Shown here one piece after another: positions 6,661 through 10,776 of a DNA stretch of 64,000 nucleotides. Under the pieces are notes generated by a model, which was given only the letters and a program-made list of their open reading frames with translations, was not told where the DNA came from and searched no databases. The position numbers were made by a program, and so were the translations under genes. The stretch lies in IMG/VR virus record IMGVR_UViG_3300042691_027241, positions 1 to 64,000 of that record; one strand, given 5' to 3'. This DNA comes from a virus. Position 1 is the stretch's first letter, and each line of letters starts with the position of its first letter.

Positions 6661-7497
6661 ATGGCAAATCCTGCTAACAATCCGTTATTCAAACATTTTA
6701 GACAACCGGCAATCTATTTAAAACTGCCCGGACAAGGCAAATTTTGGCCCGAGGATGCTATTGACATACCACCAACTGGCGAAATACCTGTGTATCCAAT
6801 GACTGTCAAAGATGAAATCACCCTCAAGACACCAGATGCACTAATGAACGGAGTAGGGGTAGTAGACACCATACAAAGCTGTTGCCCGAATATTAAAAAC
6901 GCCTGGAAGATTCCTGCATCAGATTTAGATGCTATCTTGATAGCAATACGTGCAGCCAGTTATGGATCCGACATGGATATCGAAAGTGTGTGTCCTGAAT
7001 GCAAAGAAACCACTGTGAATGTGGTAGACTTGCGTGTGTTATTGGATAATTTGAAAATTCCCAATTATGAACCAACAGCAATCAATGGCCTGACATTTAA
7101 CTTCAAACCGCAAGCTTATGATACCATGAACAACACCAATCTCATGGTGTTCGAGCAACGTAAATTGCTCGACGCTATAACCAGCAGCACGTTGTCAGAT
7201 GAAGAAAAAACCACACAATTCAATTTAATTTTTCCTAAATTAACTGAAATGAATGTGATGGCTCTTGTGTACTGTATAGAATCAATTTTTACCGAAGAAG
7301 GCAAAGAAGTCACAGAAGAAAGACATATCAAAGAATTTATTGAAAATTGTGATAGAAATGTTTATGCCAAAATTAAATCGCAAATTGAAAAATTTGTACA
7401 ATCAACCAAACCAGACTCATTGGAAATTGAGTGCAGTGAATGTCATAAAACTTACAGCACAGAACTAAACTTCGATAACGCTAATTTTTTCGGATAA
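6661..7497 (+). CDS. T4 gp26-like baseplate hub / tail assembly chaperone
   Basis: YPMTVKDEITLKTP, DLDAILIAIRAASYG, two CxxC (CPEC, CSEC), terminal NFFG; start moved to second Met (6661) because 6646 overlaps promoter region. Confidence 0.8.
   Translation: MANPANNPLFKHFRQPAIYLKLPGQGKFWPEDAIDIPPTGEIPVYPMTVKDEITLKTPDALMNGVGVVDTIQSCCPNIKNAWKIPASDLDAILIAIRAASYGSDMDIESVCPECKETTVNVVDLRVLLDNLKIPNYEPTAINGLTFNFKPQAYDTMNNTNLMVFEQRKLLDAITSSTLSDEEKTTQFNLIFPKLTEMNVMALVYCIESIFTEEGKEVTEERHIKEFIENCDRNVYAKIKSQIEKFVQSTKPDSLEIECSECHKTYSTELNFDNANFFG
7485..7491 (+). promoter_or_regulatory. Candidate -1 programmed ribosomal frameshift heptamer T_TTT_TTC
   Basis: X_XXY_YYZ pattern in correct phase, one codon before the stop; -1 frame is open into 7503-7721. 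Confidence 0.6.
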
Positions 7498-7502
7498 GGC
7501 TT

Positions 7503-7721
7503 TTGACTATGTCCACGGAGGACATGATAGCTTACTTTGACAAACTTGAAGCACAGTCAAAAGCCATGAAAGAAGAAGTGTTAAGATTATGTTGGTACAT
7601 GCGTGGCGGGTTAGACTACGACAGTGCCATGTTGTTAAGTCTTGAAGAAAGAAAGATTATTGGCAAAATAGTTAAAGATAATTTAGAAACTGCTAAGAAA
7701 TCAGGAATGCCATTCTTCTAA
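7503..7721 (+). CDS. gp51-like small baseplate/tail assembly protein (possibly C-terminal part of frameshift product)
   Basis: 72 aa right after gp26-like gene; LCWYMRGGLDYDSAMLLSLEERKII pattern resembles short chaperone extensions. Confidence 0.65.
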   Translation: MTMSTEDMIAYFDKLEAQSKAMKEEVLRLCWYMRGGLDYDSAMLLSLEERKIIGKIVKDNLETAKKSGMPFF

Positions 7722-8127
7722 GACTAACTTCGTTAGTCTATTGATTTCGCTTACGCTCATCAATGTTTTTTTAAGTTTCATCCAGATTAATCAGTCACTC
7801 TTTGCCCAGGGCGGGCAAAAAATATATGCGCTTCATCCGAGTAGCACAGTCACTGATATTAGAGCATTACAGAGGCGGTTGTCCGGTACCTCGAGCTCCG
7901 TTCTTTTACAACGGCGATTTGTTAAACATATATCAGCATATCTAACAAACGTGTACGATCGCTCGTACGTCTTTTTAGCCTTTACAAATCCTATTCAAAC
8001 AACTAAATCGCGGCATTTGCGATCTTCATCCTTGCGGGTAGTAGTTGAGTGCTTCTTGCAGCGAGAAGGCTTCCGTCCCTGTGTATTTCTACCAGGTATA
8101 GGGCACACGATATTAGCCTGTGCCAGC
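7721..8127 (-). ncRNA. Putative ~400-nt highly structured non-coding RNA (family unknown)
   Basis: About 10 stems by eye, GNRA loops (GCAA, GCGA, GUAA) and G-U pairs that work on the minus strand, 8-bp pseudoknot, 3x GGAUGAA motif; only long intergenic gap in the window. Confidence 0.7.
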
Positions 8128-8562
8128 TTAACTGCTTAATTTGCCTTTGATATGGGAGCCATGGACACGGACTTGTATATGTCCGTTATAATAATCATCT
8201 GATTCTAAGACTTGGTGTCGGAATTGTTCTCTTGCTTCAATATATGAACATTCAGCTTTTGATTTGCAGTAAAAAAGTATTTCTCTTGTAAAATTTTCTG
8301 GGCCAAGTGTTTGTATGTCTTTTTTAAGTTCGTCGTTTGAGCCATAATATAATTGCCAATCGCTATCTATTTTGCTTCTGATCTTCTTTTTCCGTTTGGT
8401 GCCGTTTTTAAGTTTTACTGTTTTTACTGTAGTTTTTGAAAATTTGGCCAGTTTTTTTCCTATGTACTTGCGCCCAGATACAGTATTTGTTATCAAATAC
8501 ACAAATCCCACGCAATCTTCAGGAAGTGATTCCACAAGAGTGGATTCGAATAGCCATGACAT
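8128..8562 (-). CDS. GIY-YIG endonuclease, T4 endonuclease II (DenA)-like
   Basis: GFVYLITN...RKYIGKK, WQLYYGSN, FTREIL, YIEAREQ, YYNGHI; standalone 144-aa catalytic domain. Confidence 0.85.
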   Translation of the reverse strand: MSWLFESTLVESLPEDCVGFVYLITNTVSGRKYIGKKLAKFSKTTVKTVKLKNGTKRKKKIRSKIDSDWQLYYGSNDELKKDIQTLGPENFTREILFYCKSKAECSYIEAREQFRHQVLESDDYYNGHIQVRVHGSHIKGKLSS

Positions 8563-8568
8563 ACAGCA

Positions 8569-9156
8569 TTAGTTATGCTTGTAATCTAAATTACAATAAA
8601 ATGTTATTTCTTCAATACAAGTATTTGCTACCAATCCAGTGGCATACTTGATAAAAGTAGCTACATCTCCCAATAACATGCCATTTCCTGTCCAATTTGC
8701 TCTACTACGACTAAGATCTGTGTCCAAGCGATCAAGTGTAATTAAGGTAGTTTTAAATGGTACATAATTGGCCTTGAATGATGCCGTGCATTGTTTACTT
8801 GCATGTGACAGTGCTGCCTTGGCCACTCGGTAAGTTTCAAATCCAGGCTCACGGGCAACAATATTTTTTTCTCCGACACTACCTATATTAAAAATATATC
8901 CTGATTTACCAGCTTGTTTCCATTCGTCATACACTGCTTCAAGCACTTGTATCTGTCCAAAATTAGCCCAAGATTCTTGAGGAGGACCATCGAATGCATT
9001 GTTTACAAATATATCATAATTCAAACTTTGCTTTGCAATTTGGTCTACATTTTTAGTAATATCAAACCCCGATGATCTACTGGCACTGTCTGCGCCAAAT
9101 GCAGTGCATAAAAATTGTCCAAGCCCTCTGTTACCACCTGTAACTAACATCTTCAT
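8569..9156 (-). CDS. Short-chain dehydrogenase/reductase (SDR)
   Basis: LVTGGNRGLG Rossmann motif, FVNNA, IFNIGS, catalytic YRVAK (YxxxK). Confidence 0.88.
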   Translation of the reverse strand: MKMLVTGGNRGLGQFLCTAFGADSASRSSGFDITKNVDQIAKQSLNYDIFVNNAFDGPPQESWANFGQIQVLEAVYDEWKQAGKSGYIFNIGSVGEKNIVAREPGFETYRVAKAALSHASKQCTASFKANYVPFKTTLITLDRLDTDLSRSRANWTGNGMLLGDVATFIKYATGLVANTCIEEITFYCNLDYKHN

Positions 9157-10268
9157 CTAATAGATCCTCCTTGATCCCATACTTTAGTAAACTTTTCACC
9201 ACATGTCATAGCACATTCCATTATTCTATTATTATCTGCCCAACTGTCAACTAAGTCGCGCCAAAAATGACTTTTAAAAATATCTGACAGATATTTTTTG
9301 TTTATGTCTAATTCATTTTTATATTGATCTATAAATTCTTTAACTTGTACTTTACCAGTGGCAGTAAAACTTGCTTGATTAGCTCCCGGCCTGGCAAAGC
9401 TGTAAAATCTTGCATCATACAGATTGTGTTCAAAAAAGTTGCAAGGCAATACCAACCCTTCGGCTGTGATTACAACTTTATTACCTAATAGTGCATCGCA
9501 TCGTATTGGTGTTGTTTTTAGATATTCTTTAAAACTGCCATGCATTTTTTTAATTACATCAATTTTTTGCACACTGGGATTACGCCATTGGTCGCTTACA
9601 GGTTCTTCCAACACATATTCTGTACCTCCTGCTCGGTCATGAACAGGCCAATTTGGATACGCACACTCGTTGGTATGATCATAAAAACGCCCAGTTTTTC
9701 TTGGTAGAAAGTTAAAAAATCCGTATTCTTGACTTAATAATTTTGCCTGTTCAACCTGATGTTCGTTGTGTTTAAACACAATATAATTCCATTGTGCTCT
9801 ACCTCCTGCCTTGATAAATGCACGAGCATTACGCATAGCAACAGCATATTTTACGTTACGTCTGTACAGATGTAAAGTATCTTCTAAGCCATCGAAGCCA
9901 AAATCAATCTGACCATAACCATTCATTATTGTGGCTATTTCTCGCCAATAAGCTTCATCATGTACCCCACCGTTGGTGTGTATATATAACCACAACGTGG
10001 GATTTTTATTTCTAAAATCTTGTAGAATGTCTAATAAATCCGGGTGCATGATAGGATCACCATAACTACCACAAAAAAATATACGTTCTACGTGATTGCA
10101 TAGATCAACATCAAAAGTGACGTCAATTGATTCTCTACTTAGATGTAATAGTGGCATGTGAGGATTTATACCACCACCCTGAATATTTCGAGGACATTGC
10201 GGACATGCAGCATTACAGTGCGTTGTGATTTCTAATTGGTATTCTTTAATTTTTTTGTAATCAAACAT
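9153..10268 (-). CDS. Radical SAM protein with C-terminal SPASM/twitch-like cysteines
   Basis: CNAACPQC motif, GSYGDP, HTNGG, DGLEDT; C-terminal RCD..PCN..ECAMTCG; likely start MFDYKK at 10268 coupled to upstream stop. Confidence 0.9.
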   Translation of the reverse strand: MFDYKKIKEYQLEITTHCNAACPQCPRNIQGGGINPHMPLLHLSRESIDVTFDVDLCNHVERIFFCGSYGDPIMHPDLLDILQDFRNKNPTLWLYIHTNGGVHDEAYWREIATIMNGYGQIDFGFDGLEDTLHLYRRNVKYAVAMRNARAFIKAGGRAQWNYIVFKHNEHQVEQAKLLSQEYGFFNFLPRKTGRFYDHTNECAYPNWPVHDRAGGTEYVLEEPVSDQWRNPSVQKIDVIKKMHGSFKEYLKTTPIRCDALLGNKVVITAEGLVLPCNFFEHNLYDARFYSFARPGANQASFTATGKVQVKEFIDQYKNELDINKKYLSDIFKSHFWRDLVDSWADNNRIMECAMTCGEKFTKVWDQGGSIR

Positions 10269-10776
10269 CAGGTAAATCTTTAAAAAAGTTTTTTGCTTCC
10301 TCGAGTATACTTGCATTGGTTTGGAAAATAGTATTAGCCAATTTAGGTCCTTGATTTCTACTGGCAATCAGCCACGGTAGTACCGGGGTAACAAATTCAT
10401 ACTTCCATGTGCCGTTGTGCCCAAGATATAAATTAGGGCAAATAAAGTATGGTTCATTATCAGCCTTGTGCATGTACACCGGATAAAATTTTCCGTCCCA
10501 GAGTTCTCTTTCTAAATTGACTTTGTCTAAGGCAATGCGTTTTATTTCAATGTGCCGATCTATTACAATGTTACCATAAGGATCATGTACATGATGCTCG
10601 GGTTTTTTATCGTAATGAATAATTTTTAAATCGTGCCCACCATTGGTTAAGTCTATATCAAAATCAAATTGGTCAAGGGCGTCGCCATTATACAATGTTA
10701 TGTAATCATCCACAATTATTTTAATTTGGGGATTACCTAATCTACGCTCTACAGCAAAATTAATTTCCAACTTCAA
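10261..10776 (-). CDS. Hypothetical protein, paralog of 13731-14294
   Basis: Shared pattern IIHYDK...GNIVIDRHIEIKRIALD...LYLGHNGTWKYEF; translationally coupled. Confidence 0.7.
   Translation of the reverse strand: MKLEINFAVERRLGNPQIKIIVDDYITLYNGDALDQFDFDIDLTNGGHDLKIIHYDKKPEHHVHDPYGNIVIDRHIEIKRIALDKVNLERELWDGKFYPVYMHKADNEPYFICPNLYLGHNGTWKYEFVTPVLPWLIASRNQGPKLANTIFQTNASILEEAKNFFKDLPDV

What the first reader, a model, noticed from the sequence alone, without database searches (positions are those of the whole stretch)
7721..8127. Ornate ~400-nt pseudoknotted RNA starting immediately after a GIY-YIG nuclease gene
Seen: this is the only long gap in a densely packed window. Read on the minus strand it is almost wall-to-wall stems, starting 3 nt after the nuclease stop. 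These are GGCACA/UGUGCC (8124-8102); CUUCU/AGAAG (8068-8052); a 3-way junction closed by CAACU/AGUUG (8047-8000) holding CC-GCAA-GG and AGAUCGC/GCGAUUU; GUACGA-GCGA-UCGUAC (7968-7953); and a 13-bp stem with three G-U pairs (7950-7917) whose 8-nt loop GCUGAUAU (7937-7930) is complementary to AUAUCAGU (7859-7852), i.e. a pseudoknot. Further stems are CCGUU/AACGG (7914-7898), nested GAGC/GAGG/CGG-ACAA-CCG (7898-7862), UUUGCCC/GGGCAAA (7819-7801) and two terminal hairpins (7764-7721). GNRA loops and G-U wobbles (A-C mismatches on +) fix the polarity as the same strand as the nuclease. I do not recognise RNase P, tmRNA, group I/II intron or tRNA hallmarks. Inference: an undescribed large phage ncRNA, possibly forming an RNP with the adjacent GIY-YIG protein (by analogy with HEARO/OMEGA nuclease-RNA pairs), or alternatively a replication-origin primer RNA.
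Basis: partly seen in the sequence, partly recalled or inferred. Interest (0 to 1): 0.9.

Follow-up and report, generated by a model that had tools for sequence, protein, structure and literature searches.

The report
Full-length Polynucleobacter-1 phage RNA
The 400-base gene-free stretch behind a small nuclease gene of this uncultured giant freshwater phage encodes a real, knotted non-coding RNA. It is not new: its first third is a motif catalogued in 2010 and most of the rest was drawn in that paper's supplement. Its function, and the short word it carries twice, remain unexplained.

Summary
Verdict: a real RNA, but not a new one.

- **Known part.** Window 7997-8128 (minus strand) is a full-length match to Rfam RF01718, Polynucleobacter-1 (107 bits, cut-off 37).
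- **Conservation.** The 270 nt downstream are conserved in more than 100 viral contigs. On 70 diverse relatives, 88.5% of cells pair (74% in shuffles), and 82 of 108 pairs show compensatory changes.
The pseudoknot holds (96% paired, 6 of 8 pairs covary). The CCGUU/AACGG stem does not. Two further pseudoknots appear.
- **Prior art.** The supplementary alignment of Weinberg et al. 2010 already draws the "tail" and this pseudoknot. It also notes the upstream gene family: PSSM2_218 is a homologue of this GIY-YIG gene.
- **Undrawn part.** Only the last ~130 nt are not drawn there. They hold two identical 7-nt boxes (GGAUGAA), identical in 136 of 144 relatives across 11 words, with no complement found nearby.
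- **Nuclease link: unsupported.** Relatives of the nuclease in cultured phages lack the RNA. The RNA also sits beside a PD-(D/E)XK nuclease, beside inserted genes, and in bacteria beside a small tyrosine recombinase.
- **Origin-primer idea: unsupported.**

This scan has reported the same RNA family many times on other DNA. Function is unknown. My best guess is a stand-alone trans-acting scaffold RNA.

The parts
8128..8562 (-). 144-aa stand-alone GIY-YIG nuclease gene (context; its stop codon abuts the RNA)
   Evidence: Pfam PF19835 SegE_GIY-YIG, E 9.2e-34; phrog_447. AF2 model pLDDT 86.2 with a weak Foldseek match to the I-TevI catalytic domain. Homologue of P-SSM2 PSSM2_218: 37% identity, E 7e-20.
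7997..8128 (-). 5' domain, equal to the Rfam RF01718 Polynucleobacter-1 motif. Helices: P1 8123-8119/8107-8103; P2 8095-8090/8085-8079; P3 8070-8064/8056-8051; three-way junction 8047-8043/8004-8000 with arms 8041-8036/8031-8027 and 8025-8019/8011-8005.
   Evidence: cmscan 107.1 bits (cut-off 37), model positions 1-141 of 141. Covariation, helices 2-10.
8115..8128 (-). Pseudoknot PK0: 5' leader 8128-8126 pairs with P1-loop bases 8115-8117
   Evidence: helix 1. Pair 8127:8116 is GC in 57 and AU in 13 sequences, with none unpaired. Pair 8128:8115 is GC 30, AU 15, GU 11. Pair 8126:8117 is invariant CG.
7953..7968 (-). Hairpin GUACGA-GCGA-UCGUAC
   Evidence: helices 11-12; searches show GC/UA/CG/AU exchanges at 7967:7954 and 7966:7955.
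7917..7950 (-). 13-bp hairpin. Its 8-nt loop (7937-7930) is the 5' strand of pseudoknot PK1.
   Evidence: helix 13: all 13 pairs change on both sides.
7852..7859 (-). 3' strand of pseudoknot PK1 (AUAUCAGU), pairing with loop 7937-7930
   Evidence: helix 14: 96.4% paired, 6 of 8 pairs compensatory. Example word pairs are UGAUAU/AUAUCA, UAGCGU/ACGCUA, UAGUGU/ACACUA and CUCUAAU/AUUAGAG. Drawn as SS_cons_1 in the 2010 alignment.
7862..7898 (-). Nested helices GAGC/GCUC (7898-7895/7865-7862), GAGG/CCUC (7892-7889/7875-7872) and CGG/CCG (7885-7883/7878-7876), with loop ACAA (7882-7879)
   Evidence: helices 16-18: 97.1%, 95.7% and 92.4% paired. The CGG/CCG helix is invariant, so it is untested by covariation.
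7908..7911 (-). Pseudoknot/kissing interaction PK2: UUGU pairs with loop ACAA (7882-7879).
   Evidence: helix 15: 97.1% paired, 3 of 4 pairs compensatory (UA 54/CG 16; GC 58/AU 12; UA 54/GC 6/AU 4). rejects the rival stem.
7832..7853 (-). Module A: GUGAC (7853-7849), a variable 6 nt, ACUC, then box A GGAUGAA (7838-7832). Box A probably lies in a loop closed by 7848-7843/7832-7827.
   Evidence: The closing stem is only weakly supported: mean longest helix 4.34 against 3.83 +/- 0.08 with swapped partners. It is not resolved on the fixed alignment.
7801..7819 (-). Hairpin UUUGCCC-GCCCU-GGGCAAA between the two modules
   Evidence: helix 20: 95.1% paired, 2 pairs compensatory.
7777..7798 (-). Module B: GUGAC (7798-7794), a variable 6 nt, AUCU, then box B GGAUGAA (7783-7777), exactly 55 nt after module A
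   Evidence: Identity of box A and box B at the variable positions: 7838=7783 (GG 62, AA 25, GA 1), 7834=7779 (GG 50, AA 38), 7832=7777 (UU 62, AA 25, GG 1), and 7842=7787 (AA 79, GG 6). 136 of 144 unique relatives have 7/7 identical boxes, across 11 words.
7740..7764 (-). Hairpin T1: AUUGAU / GA-GC-GUAA-GC-GAA / AUCAAU
   Evidence: helices 21-23; (7762:7742 to 7759:7745).
7721..7739 (.). Hairpin T2, the last element of the RNA or a two-way terminator. It starts at the stop codon of the convergent 72-aa gene.
   Evidence: helix 24: 97.5% paired, 7 of 8 pairs compensatory. Scored as terminator-like on the plus strand. GU/AC counts do not fix the strand.

Best explanation
Window 8128 to about 7721-7740 (minus strand) encodes a full-length member of the Polynucleobacter-1 RNA family, a non-coding RNA of about 390-410 nt.

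Shown:
- The 5' 132 nt are the Rfam motif.
- The whole length is conserved and covaries.
- It folds into about 15 helices tied by three loop-to-strand pseudoknots.
- Its last third carries two 22-nt modules (GUGAC-N6-AYYY-box), 55 nt apart, whose 7-nt boxes are always the same word.

Inferred:
- It is made as the 3' end of the minus-strand gp46, radical-SAM cassette, SDR and GIY-YIG transcription unit. No promoter-like site lies in front of it, and the nuclease's stop codon touches it.
- It probably persists as a stable RNA ending at or before the hairpin that also closes the convergent baseplate genes.
- It most likely works on its own in trans, not as a leader, not as a mere terminator and not as an obligate subunit of the neighbouring nuclease. 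A compact knotted core would hold out two copies of one short single-stranded word to a two-sited partner that tells G from A. That partner is a co-evolving nucleic acid or the other box itself, and it is still unknown.
For: - **Family membership:**
- **Conservation of the 3' 270 nt:** 111 of 122 pattern-found regions, and 71 of 80 loci found through the protein alone. Eight of the nine without it have under 230 nt of flank.
- **Structure and pseudoknots:** (88.5% against 74.0% paired; 82 of 108 pairs compensatory; 0 of 500 shuffles).
- **Non-coding:**
- **Strand:**
- **Twin boxes:**. At least 43 parsimony changes of the word on a tree built with the boxes masked.
- **Independence from the GIY-YIG gene:**
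  - Unrelated genes are inserted between gene and RNA in at least 7 loci.
  - A PDDEXK_15 nuclease replaces it in 3 loci.
  - In Polynucleobacter and Limnohabitans genomes the RNA sits between DUF6641 and a ~190-aa tyrosine recombinase.
  - GIY-YIG homologues in Melnitz, P-RSM4, P-SSM2, phiM7 and Moby have no RNA.
- **No promoter-like site in 7400-8700:**
Against: - No experiment or read-level data show the transcript, its ends or its stability. The only RNA-library signal over the RNA itself is one 158-nt contig of a relative.
- The partner of the boxes was not found, so "two-sited display" is an inference from sequence pattern alone.
- The RNA is still next to a small DNA enzyme in nearly every context, which a fully independent RNA does not explain.
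- RNA-linked GIY-YIG proteins carry a basic beta-hairpin 6-11 residues longer than RNA-less homologues.
- The structure around box B is unresolved.
Confidence: 0.5

Rival explanations
1. RNA-protein machine. The RNA is the targeting or scaffolding subunit of the adjacent minimal DNA enzyme (GIY-YIG here; PD-(D/E)XK or a catalytic-domain-only tyrosine recombinase elsewhere). The twin boxes read two identical 7-nt sites.
For: - The neighbour is almost always a small enzyme that lacks a DNA-binding domain: GIY-YIG in 106 of 122 regions, PDDEXK_15, and a 188-199-aa Phage_integrase-domain protein in bacteria.
- RNA-linked GIY-YIG proteins have a longer lysine-rich beta-hairpin than RNA-less homologues.
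- The boxes evolve fast, as guides do.
Against: - Three unrelated enzyme folds would have to use one RNA.
- Genes are inserted between enzyme and RNA.
- The phrog_447 family is widespread without the RNA.
- No complement of the boxes lies in the RNA, within +/-4 kb, or enriched in the window.
- No nuclease column tracks the boxes (only 6-11 independent contrasts).
- Seven nucleotides is very short for a guide.
Confidence: 0.12
2. Cis-acting 3' end. The element only stabilises or terminates the gp46-to-nuclease transcript, acting as an exonuclease block and two-way terminator at a convergent gene junction.
For: It lies at the 3' end of a transcription unit, facing convergent genes. Hairpin T2 is terminator-like on the plus strand. 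No own promoter-like site was found.
Against: About 400 nt, three covarying pseudoknots and dozens of invariant unpaired bases are far more than a terminator needs. In bacteria the same RNA stands upstream of a gene behind a divergent intergenic region. The twin boxes are unexplained.
Confidence: 0.1
3. RNA-only function: a ribozyme, or a self-assembling ornate RNA like GOLLD/ROOL. The boxes would touch each other (for example by parallel like-with-like pairs) or a second copy of the RNA.
For: Its size, the pseudoknots and many invariant unpaired nucleotides. Identity rather than complementarity of the boxes, with no third partner column in the RNA. Large phage-borne RNAs are known to form RNA-only assemblies (bioRxiv 10.1101/2024.12.08.627333, listed; its abstract only was read).
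Against: No match to any ribozyme or large-RNA family in Rfam at E <= 10. Like-with-like pairing over 7 nt has no natural precedent that I know of. Nothing here tests assembly or catalysis.
Confidence: 0.1
4. Replication-origin primer RNA.
For: Structured primer RNAs exist (ColE1 RNA II; my own knowledge). T4 origins use transcripts (my own knowledge).
Against: Cumulative GC skew shows no turn at 7.7-8.1 kb. The same RNA occurs inside bacterial chromosomal islands next to a recombinase. No AT-rich unwinding element or repeat array was seen beside it.
Confidence: 0.03

Closest known systems
Polynucleobacter-1 RNA motif (Rfam RF01718; Weinberg et al. 2010, Genome Biol 11:R31, PMC2864571)
   Same: The 5' 132 nt are a full-length match (107 bits). 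The gene context is the same, downstream of a PSSM2_218-like gene. The habitats are the same: freshwater metagenomes and Polynucleobacter.
   Different: Neither Rfam nor the 2010 consensus covers the last ~130 nt (twin-box modules, GCCC hairpin, two terminal hairpins). The leader/P1-loop pseudoknot and the UUGU:ACAA kissing pair are also not in the consensus lines I read. In 2010 no copy had been seen in a phage genome; here it lies in a 75.5-kb viral contig with T4-like genes.
HEARO / OMEGA RNAs (IscB, TnpB omega-RNAs)
   Same: A large structured RNA encoded next to a small nuclease gene in a mobile genome.
   Different: The nuclease is a 144-aa GIY-YIG domain, not RuvC/HNH. The RNA is not tied to the nuclease family. 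No variable guide with a matching target was found. There are no transposon ends.
GOLLD / ROOL and other large ornate phage-associated RNAs
   Same: An orphan, several-hundred-nt, pseudoknotted RNA carried by phages and islands, function unknown, found by comparative genomics.
   Different: No sequence or structure match in Rfam. It is smaller. Multimer formation was not tested.
Bridge RNA of IS110 recombinases (Durrant et al. 2024, PMC11208160)
   Same: In the bacterial copies a structured RNA sits beside a small recombinase and carries two short specificity-like segments.
   Different: The recombinase there is a tyrosine-recombinase catalytic domain, not DEDD/Tnp. The two boxes are identical, not target and donor guides. 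No matching DNA sites were identified. The phage copy has no recombinase.

Membership tests
Polynucleobacter-1 RNA (RF01718) | Covariance-model score above the curated gathering score over the whole model | tested here: met
   107.1 bits against 37; model 1-141 of 141; E 3.1e-22.
Polynucleobacter-1 RNA (RF01718) | Consensus helices of the motif (P1, P2, P3, three-way junction with two arms) kept by compensatory change | tested here: met
   helices 2-10: 84-100% paired. The junction stem is 100% paired, with 4 of 5 pairs compensatory.
Polynucleobacter-1 RNA (RF01718) | The "tail" of the 2010 alignment: a 6-bp hairpin, a long hairpin, nested helices, and a 7-bp pseudoknot from the long hairpin's loop | tested here: met
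   SS_cons and SS_cons_1 in the 2010 Stockholm file. The same elements sit at 7968-7852 and covary (helices 11-18).
Polynucleobacter-1 RNA (RF01718) | Lies downstream of a GOS11034 / PSSM2_218-like gene | tested here: met
   2010 supplementary text. The window's GIY-YIG protein against PSSM2_218: 37% identity, E 7e-20. GOS11034 itself could not be looked up.
HEARO/OMEGA-type RNA-guided nuclease system | The nuclease family is consistently coupled to its RNA | tested here: not met
   Five cultured-phage homologues have no RNA. The RNA occurs with PDDEXK_15, with inserted genes or with a recombinase.
HEARO/OMEGA-type RNA-guided nuclease system | A variable guide segment complementary to a target site | tested here: not met
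   No complement of the variable boxes in the RNA or within +/-4 kb. The word is not enriched in the window: 8 found, 8.08 expected. Targets elsewhere (host, other phages) could not be searched.
HEARO/OMEGA-type RNA-guided nuclease system | Physical binding of the RNA by the nuclease and RNA-dependent cleavage | not testable with these tools
   Needs biochemistry.
Group I intron with GIY-YIG homing endonuclease | Match to the intron model, and flanking exons of one interrupted gene | tested here: not met
   No Rfam hit other than RF01718 at E <= 10. The nuclease ORF is preceded 7 nt upstream by a complete SDR gene, and the RNA is followed by a convergent gene.
Intrinsic terminator / 3'-UTR element | GC-rich hairpin followed by a U run at the end of the unit | tested here: inconclusive
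   T2 (7721-7739) scores as terminator-like on the plus strand only. On the minus strand no U run follows it.

The most novel reading that the evidence does not exclude
The RNA is the shared specificity subunit of minimal, DNA-binding-domain-less DNA enzymes. These are a GIY-YIG or PD-(D/E)XK nuclease in phages and a catalytic-domain-only tyrosine recombinase in Burkholderiales islands. Its two always-identical 7-nt boxes would select two identical short DNA sites, such as the two crossover or nick sites. That would make it a new kind of RNA-guided DNA cutting and joining.
Probability: 0.05. Interest if true: 0.95.

Novelty: new member of a known kind. Interest (0 to 1): 0.42.

Why it matters
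Polynucleobacter-1 has been an orphan motif since 2010, with no copy seen in a sequenced purified phage at that time. This window places a complete copy inside a T4-like giant freshwater phage contig, at a fixed spot behind the gp46 recombination-nuclease operon. The catalogued 141 nt turn out to be only the first third of a ~400-nt, triply knotted RNA. The last third carries two identical boxes that change together. That pattern is unusual and testable: it demands a base-discriminating, two-sited reader. If a culturable host-phage pair or the Polynucleobacter island were used, the RNA could be deleted, its boxes swapped and its partner pulled down. For the catalogue, the practical gain is a better family model (full length, pseudoknots, divergent 5' variant) rather than a new class.

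Tried and rejected
- **Similar DNA in cultured phages:** none (blastn).
- **Other Rfam families** in 7300-8700 at E <= 10: none.
- **RNA libraries.** Only assembled contigs of relatives (85-95% alike) were available.
  - They cover mainly the nuclease gene.
  - One X4 contig spans 7994-8133 with adapter-like letters at both ends. This is a hint of a ~140-nt fragment at most.
  - Lack of cover over 7722-7993 shows nothing.
- **Partner of the twin boxes.**
  - No complement at a fixed place within +/-4 kb.
  - Within the RNA, only a G/U-rich strand already used in helices pairs by wobble.
  - No third covarying column.
  - No enrichment in the window, and no tRNA genes in the window.
- **Motif ideas checked by eye and dropped** because the variant words do not fit: CsrA GGA sites (about a third of phage boxes read AGAU, and the bacterial boxes lack GGA), anticodon-loop mimicry or complement, hammerhead core, kink-turn C/D boxes, and short ORFs starting at the AUG in the box (variants have AUA).
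- **Stem closing box A, and a helix between the two variable 6-mers.** Neither is resolved on the fixed alignment. An alignment-free test supports only the first, and weakly.
- **Co-variation between box words and GIY-YIG residues:** none, but only 6-11 independent contrasts.
- **Recombinase homologue in this phage record:** none. The record is about 22% complete, so this shows little.
- **Protein structure.** Foldseek of the nuclease model against PDB gave only weak rows. phmmer against PDB sequences found nothing.
- **Literature.** No paper in the held library other than Weinberg 2010 names the motif. A 2023 survey of viral structured RNAs discards regions overlapping Rfam and reports motifs of at most 151 nt.
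Full report
**1. What is in the sequence.**
Between the stop codon of a 144-aa gene (8128-8562, minus strand) and the stop codon of a convergent 72-aa gene (7503-7721, plus strand) lie 406 bases without a credible ORF. A 132-aa antisense ORF happens to be open in this window. It is not kept in relatives: the median longest stop-free stretch in 144 unique homologous regions is 62 aa. The minus strand folds to -126.9 kcal/mol (z = -3.06; 0 of 100 shuffles as good). The plus strand gives z = -1.40.

**2. It is a known family.**
A scan of the whole window against Rfam gives one hit: RF01718, Polynucleobacter-1 RNA, at 7997-8128 on the minus strand. It scores 107.1 bits against a gathering score of 37 and covers model positions 1-141 of 141. 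Nothing else in Rfam matches 7300-8700 even at E <= 10.

**3. How much was already described.**
The motif comes from Weinberg et al. 2010 (PMC2864571). The supplementary text says four things:
- The motif occurs in environmental samples and in Polynucleobacter sp. QLW-P1DMWA-1.
- Most copies lie downstream of genes of family GOS11034, with possible homology to PSSM2_218 of cyanophage P-SSM2.
- No copy was seen in a purified phage.

I read the raw Stockholm file. After the part that became the Rfam seed, its consensus line continues with a 6-bp hairpin, a long hairpin and three nested helices. A second structure line draws a 7-bp pseudoknot from the loop of the long hairpin to just behind the nested helices; the file labels these parts "tail" and "tailpknot".

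PSSM2_218 (annotated "NAD synthetase", T4-GC 213) is a homologue of the window's nuclease: 37% identity, E 7e-20. So about two thirds of the element, its pseudoknot and its gene neighbour were on record in 2010.

Not drawn there are the last ~130 nt. Two further pseudoknots are also absent from the consensus lines I read.

**4. Conservation and structure, tested here.**
A core pattern of the motif finds at least 120 viral contigs.
- The 270 nt downstream of the Rfam part are similar in 111 of 122 regions.
- In 80 loci found through the protein alone, the 3' part is present in 71. Eight of the nine without it have under 230 nt of flank.
- About 30 of these have a 5' domain too divergent for my profile but of the same build. 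The 3' part is therefore the more widely kept half.

On 70 diverse full-length sequences (A1) I counted 108 pairs in 24 helices:
- 88.5% of cells pair, against 74.0% in shuffles and 35-41% with slid partners.
- 82 pairs have compensatory changes.
- 0 of 500 shuffles reach any of the observed measures.

The 13-bp stem covaries at all 13 pairs. The pseudoknot is 96.4% paired, with 6 of 8 pairs compensatory.

Two details fail:
- Pair 8124:8102 is particular to this window.
- The CCGUU/AACGG stem has no compensatory change (84 of 500 shuffles do as well). It collides with two covarying pairings, 7898:7862 and UUGU (7911-7908) with the loop ACAA (7882-7879).

Three pairings are additions:
- that UUGU:ACAA kissing pair (97.1% paired, 3 of 4 compensatory);
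- a 3-bp pairing of the 5' leader with the P1 loop;
- pair 8041:8027.

**5. The twin boxes.**
Earlier agents of this scan reported "twin boxes" in this family, and I re-tested the claim. The last third holds two modules 55 nt apart:
- Module A: GUGAC-N6-ACUC-GGAUGAA (7853-7832).
- Module B: GUGAC-N6-AUCU-GGAUGAA (7798-7777).

At every variable position the two boxes agree: GG 62/AA 25/GA 1; GG 50/AA 38; UU 62/AA 25/GG 1; and position -4, AA 79/GG 6. Of 144 unique relatives, 136 have boxes identical in 7 of 7 positions, using 11 words. On a tree built with the boxes masked, the word changes at least 43 times by parsimony (a FastTree, so this is an upper-leaning count). Bacterial copies use quite different words: AACAAAA, AUCGAA and GCAAAU.

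A G-to-A change would be neutral against a U partner. The strict identity therefore implies a reader that tells the bases apart. I found no such reader:
- no complement at a fixed place within +/-4 kb;
- none in the RNA apart from wobble to a G/U-rich strand already in helices;
- no third covarying column;
- no enrichment of the word in the window, 8 found against 8.08 expected;
- no tRNA genes in the window.

**6. Is it tied to the nuclease?**
The protein is a stand-alone GIY-YIG domain: PF19835, E 9.2e-34, and phrog_447, whose label "NAD synthetase" does not fit the GIY-YIG match. The AF2 model has pLDDT 86.2 and a long lysine-rich beta-hairpin. In 106 of 122 regions a homologue (56-100% identical) ends 0-55 nt before the RNA.

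The tie is nevertheless loose:
- In at least seven loci one or two unrelated genes sit between nuclease and RNA.
- In three loci the neighbour is a PDDEXK_15 nuclease directly after a Rad50-like gp46.
- In two loci (L019, L114) no ORF on the RNA's strand lies within about 400 nt upstream, and in one (L112) two Cys-rich proteins of 347 and 365 aa precede it.
- In Polynucleobacter, Limnohabitans and related genomes the RNA stands between a divergent DUF6641 gene and a 188-199-aa tyrosine recombinase that is only a catalytic domain.
- Homologues of the nuclease in the cultured phages Melnitz, P-RSM4, P-SSM2, phiM7 and Moby (37-50% identity) are followed at once by other genes and have no RF01718 match.
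- No column of the nuclease tracks the box words, though only 6-11 independent contrasts exist.

Two things keep the idea alive. The neighbour is nearly always some small DNA enzyme without a DNA-binding domain. The RNA-linked GIY-YIG proteins have a basic hairpin 6-11 residues longer than the RNA-less ones. That last comparison is confounded by relatedness.

**7. Expression.**
Public RNA libraries offered only assembled contigs of relatives. They cover the nuclease gene. One 158-nt contig covers 7994-8133, with adapter-like letters on both sides. That fits a short insert equal to the Rfam domain, but it is a single low-depth record. I count it as a hint only. No sigma-70-like promoter is predicted between 7400 and 8700. 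The last hairpin is terminator-like on the plus strand.

**8. Other readings.**
- An origin primer has no support. There is no GC-skew turn at the locus, and the RNA also lives in chromosomal islands.
- A group I intron is excluded. There is no model match, a complete SDR gene ends 7 nt before the nuclease gene, and a convergent gene follows the RNA.
- A bare terminator or stabiliser does not need 400 nt, three pseudoknots and dozens of invariant unpaired bases.

**9. Verdict.**
The claim of an undescribed RNA is not. This is a full-length member of the Polynucleobacter-1 family in a T4-like giant freshwater phage (a 75.5-kb record, about 22% complete). Its 3' third and twin boxes are not in the 2010 record or in Rfam.

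The same family has been reported many times by this scan on other DNA, and I re-tested those claims rather than relying on them.

Function remains unknown. My best guess, at about even odds, is a stand-alone trans-acting scaffold RNA that presents two copies of one word. An RNP with the neighbouring enzyme stays at roughly one in eight.

Noticed in passing
window 8380-8455 (residues ~37-62 of the 144-aa protein): The RNA-linked GIY-YIG proteins carry a lysine-rich beta-hairpin (modelled at pLDDT ~87-91). It is 6-11 residues longer than in five RNA-less homologues from cultured phages. It could be a nucleic-acid-binding arm.
   Followed up: partly
L151, L153, L157, L163, L168, L203-L211 and others: A second subfamily keeps the 3' two thirds of the RNA but has a divergent 5' domain of the same build (hairpin, CCC..GAGGAACGGUG..CCCGGUC..GGA). 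My profile of the Rfam-type domain does not detect it.
   Followed up: partly
L137 (Polynucleobacter genome G097, RNA at 10812-~11350), L138, L139: In Burkholderiales genomes the RNA sits between a divergent DUF6641 gene and a 188-199-aa tyrosine recombinase consisting only of the catalytic domain, inside an island with a larger integrase and a DNA methylase. The twin boxes there read AACAAAA, AUCGAA or GCAAAU.
   Followed up: partly
L058, L105, L113: In three phage contigs the slot between gp46 (Rad50-like) and the RNA holds a 171-172-aa PDDEXK_15 endonuclease instead of the GIY-YIG gene. A non-homologous small nuclease occupies the same place.
   Followed up: partly
window 8109-8116 and 7855-7862: CUAAUAUC occurs both in the P1 loop and at the 3' strand of the pseudoknot in this window. 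Only L017 and L056 share this, so it is not the conserved twin box and is probably coincidence.
   Followed up: yes
window 8025-8031: A third GGAUGAA lies in the 5' domain. It is part of the conserved GGAYGAAGAU stretch and does not change with the twin boxes in relatives.
   Followed up: yes
window 8569-10367: An SDR-like gene and a radical-SAM gene lie between the nuclease and the genes upstream. A first-stage note on this genome, which I did not test, places gp46 further upstream with a B12/radical-SAM cassette in between.
   Followed up: no
window 7994-8133: One metatranscriptome contig of a relative (run X4) ends at both sides in adapter-like letters. It spans almost exactly the Rfam domain, which may mean a stable or processed ~140-nt fragment.
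   Followed up: no
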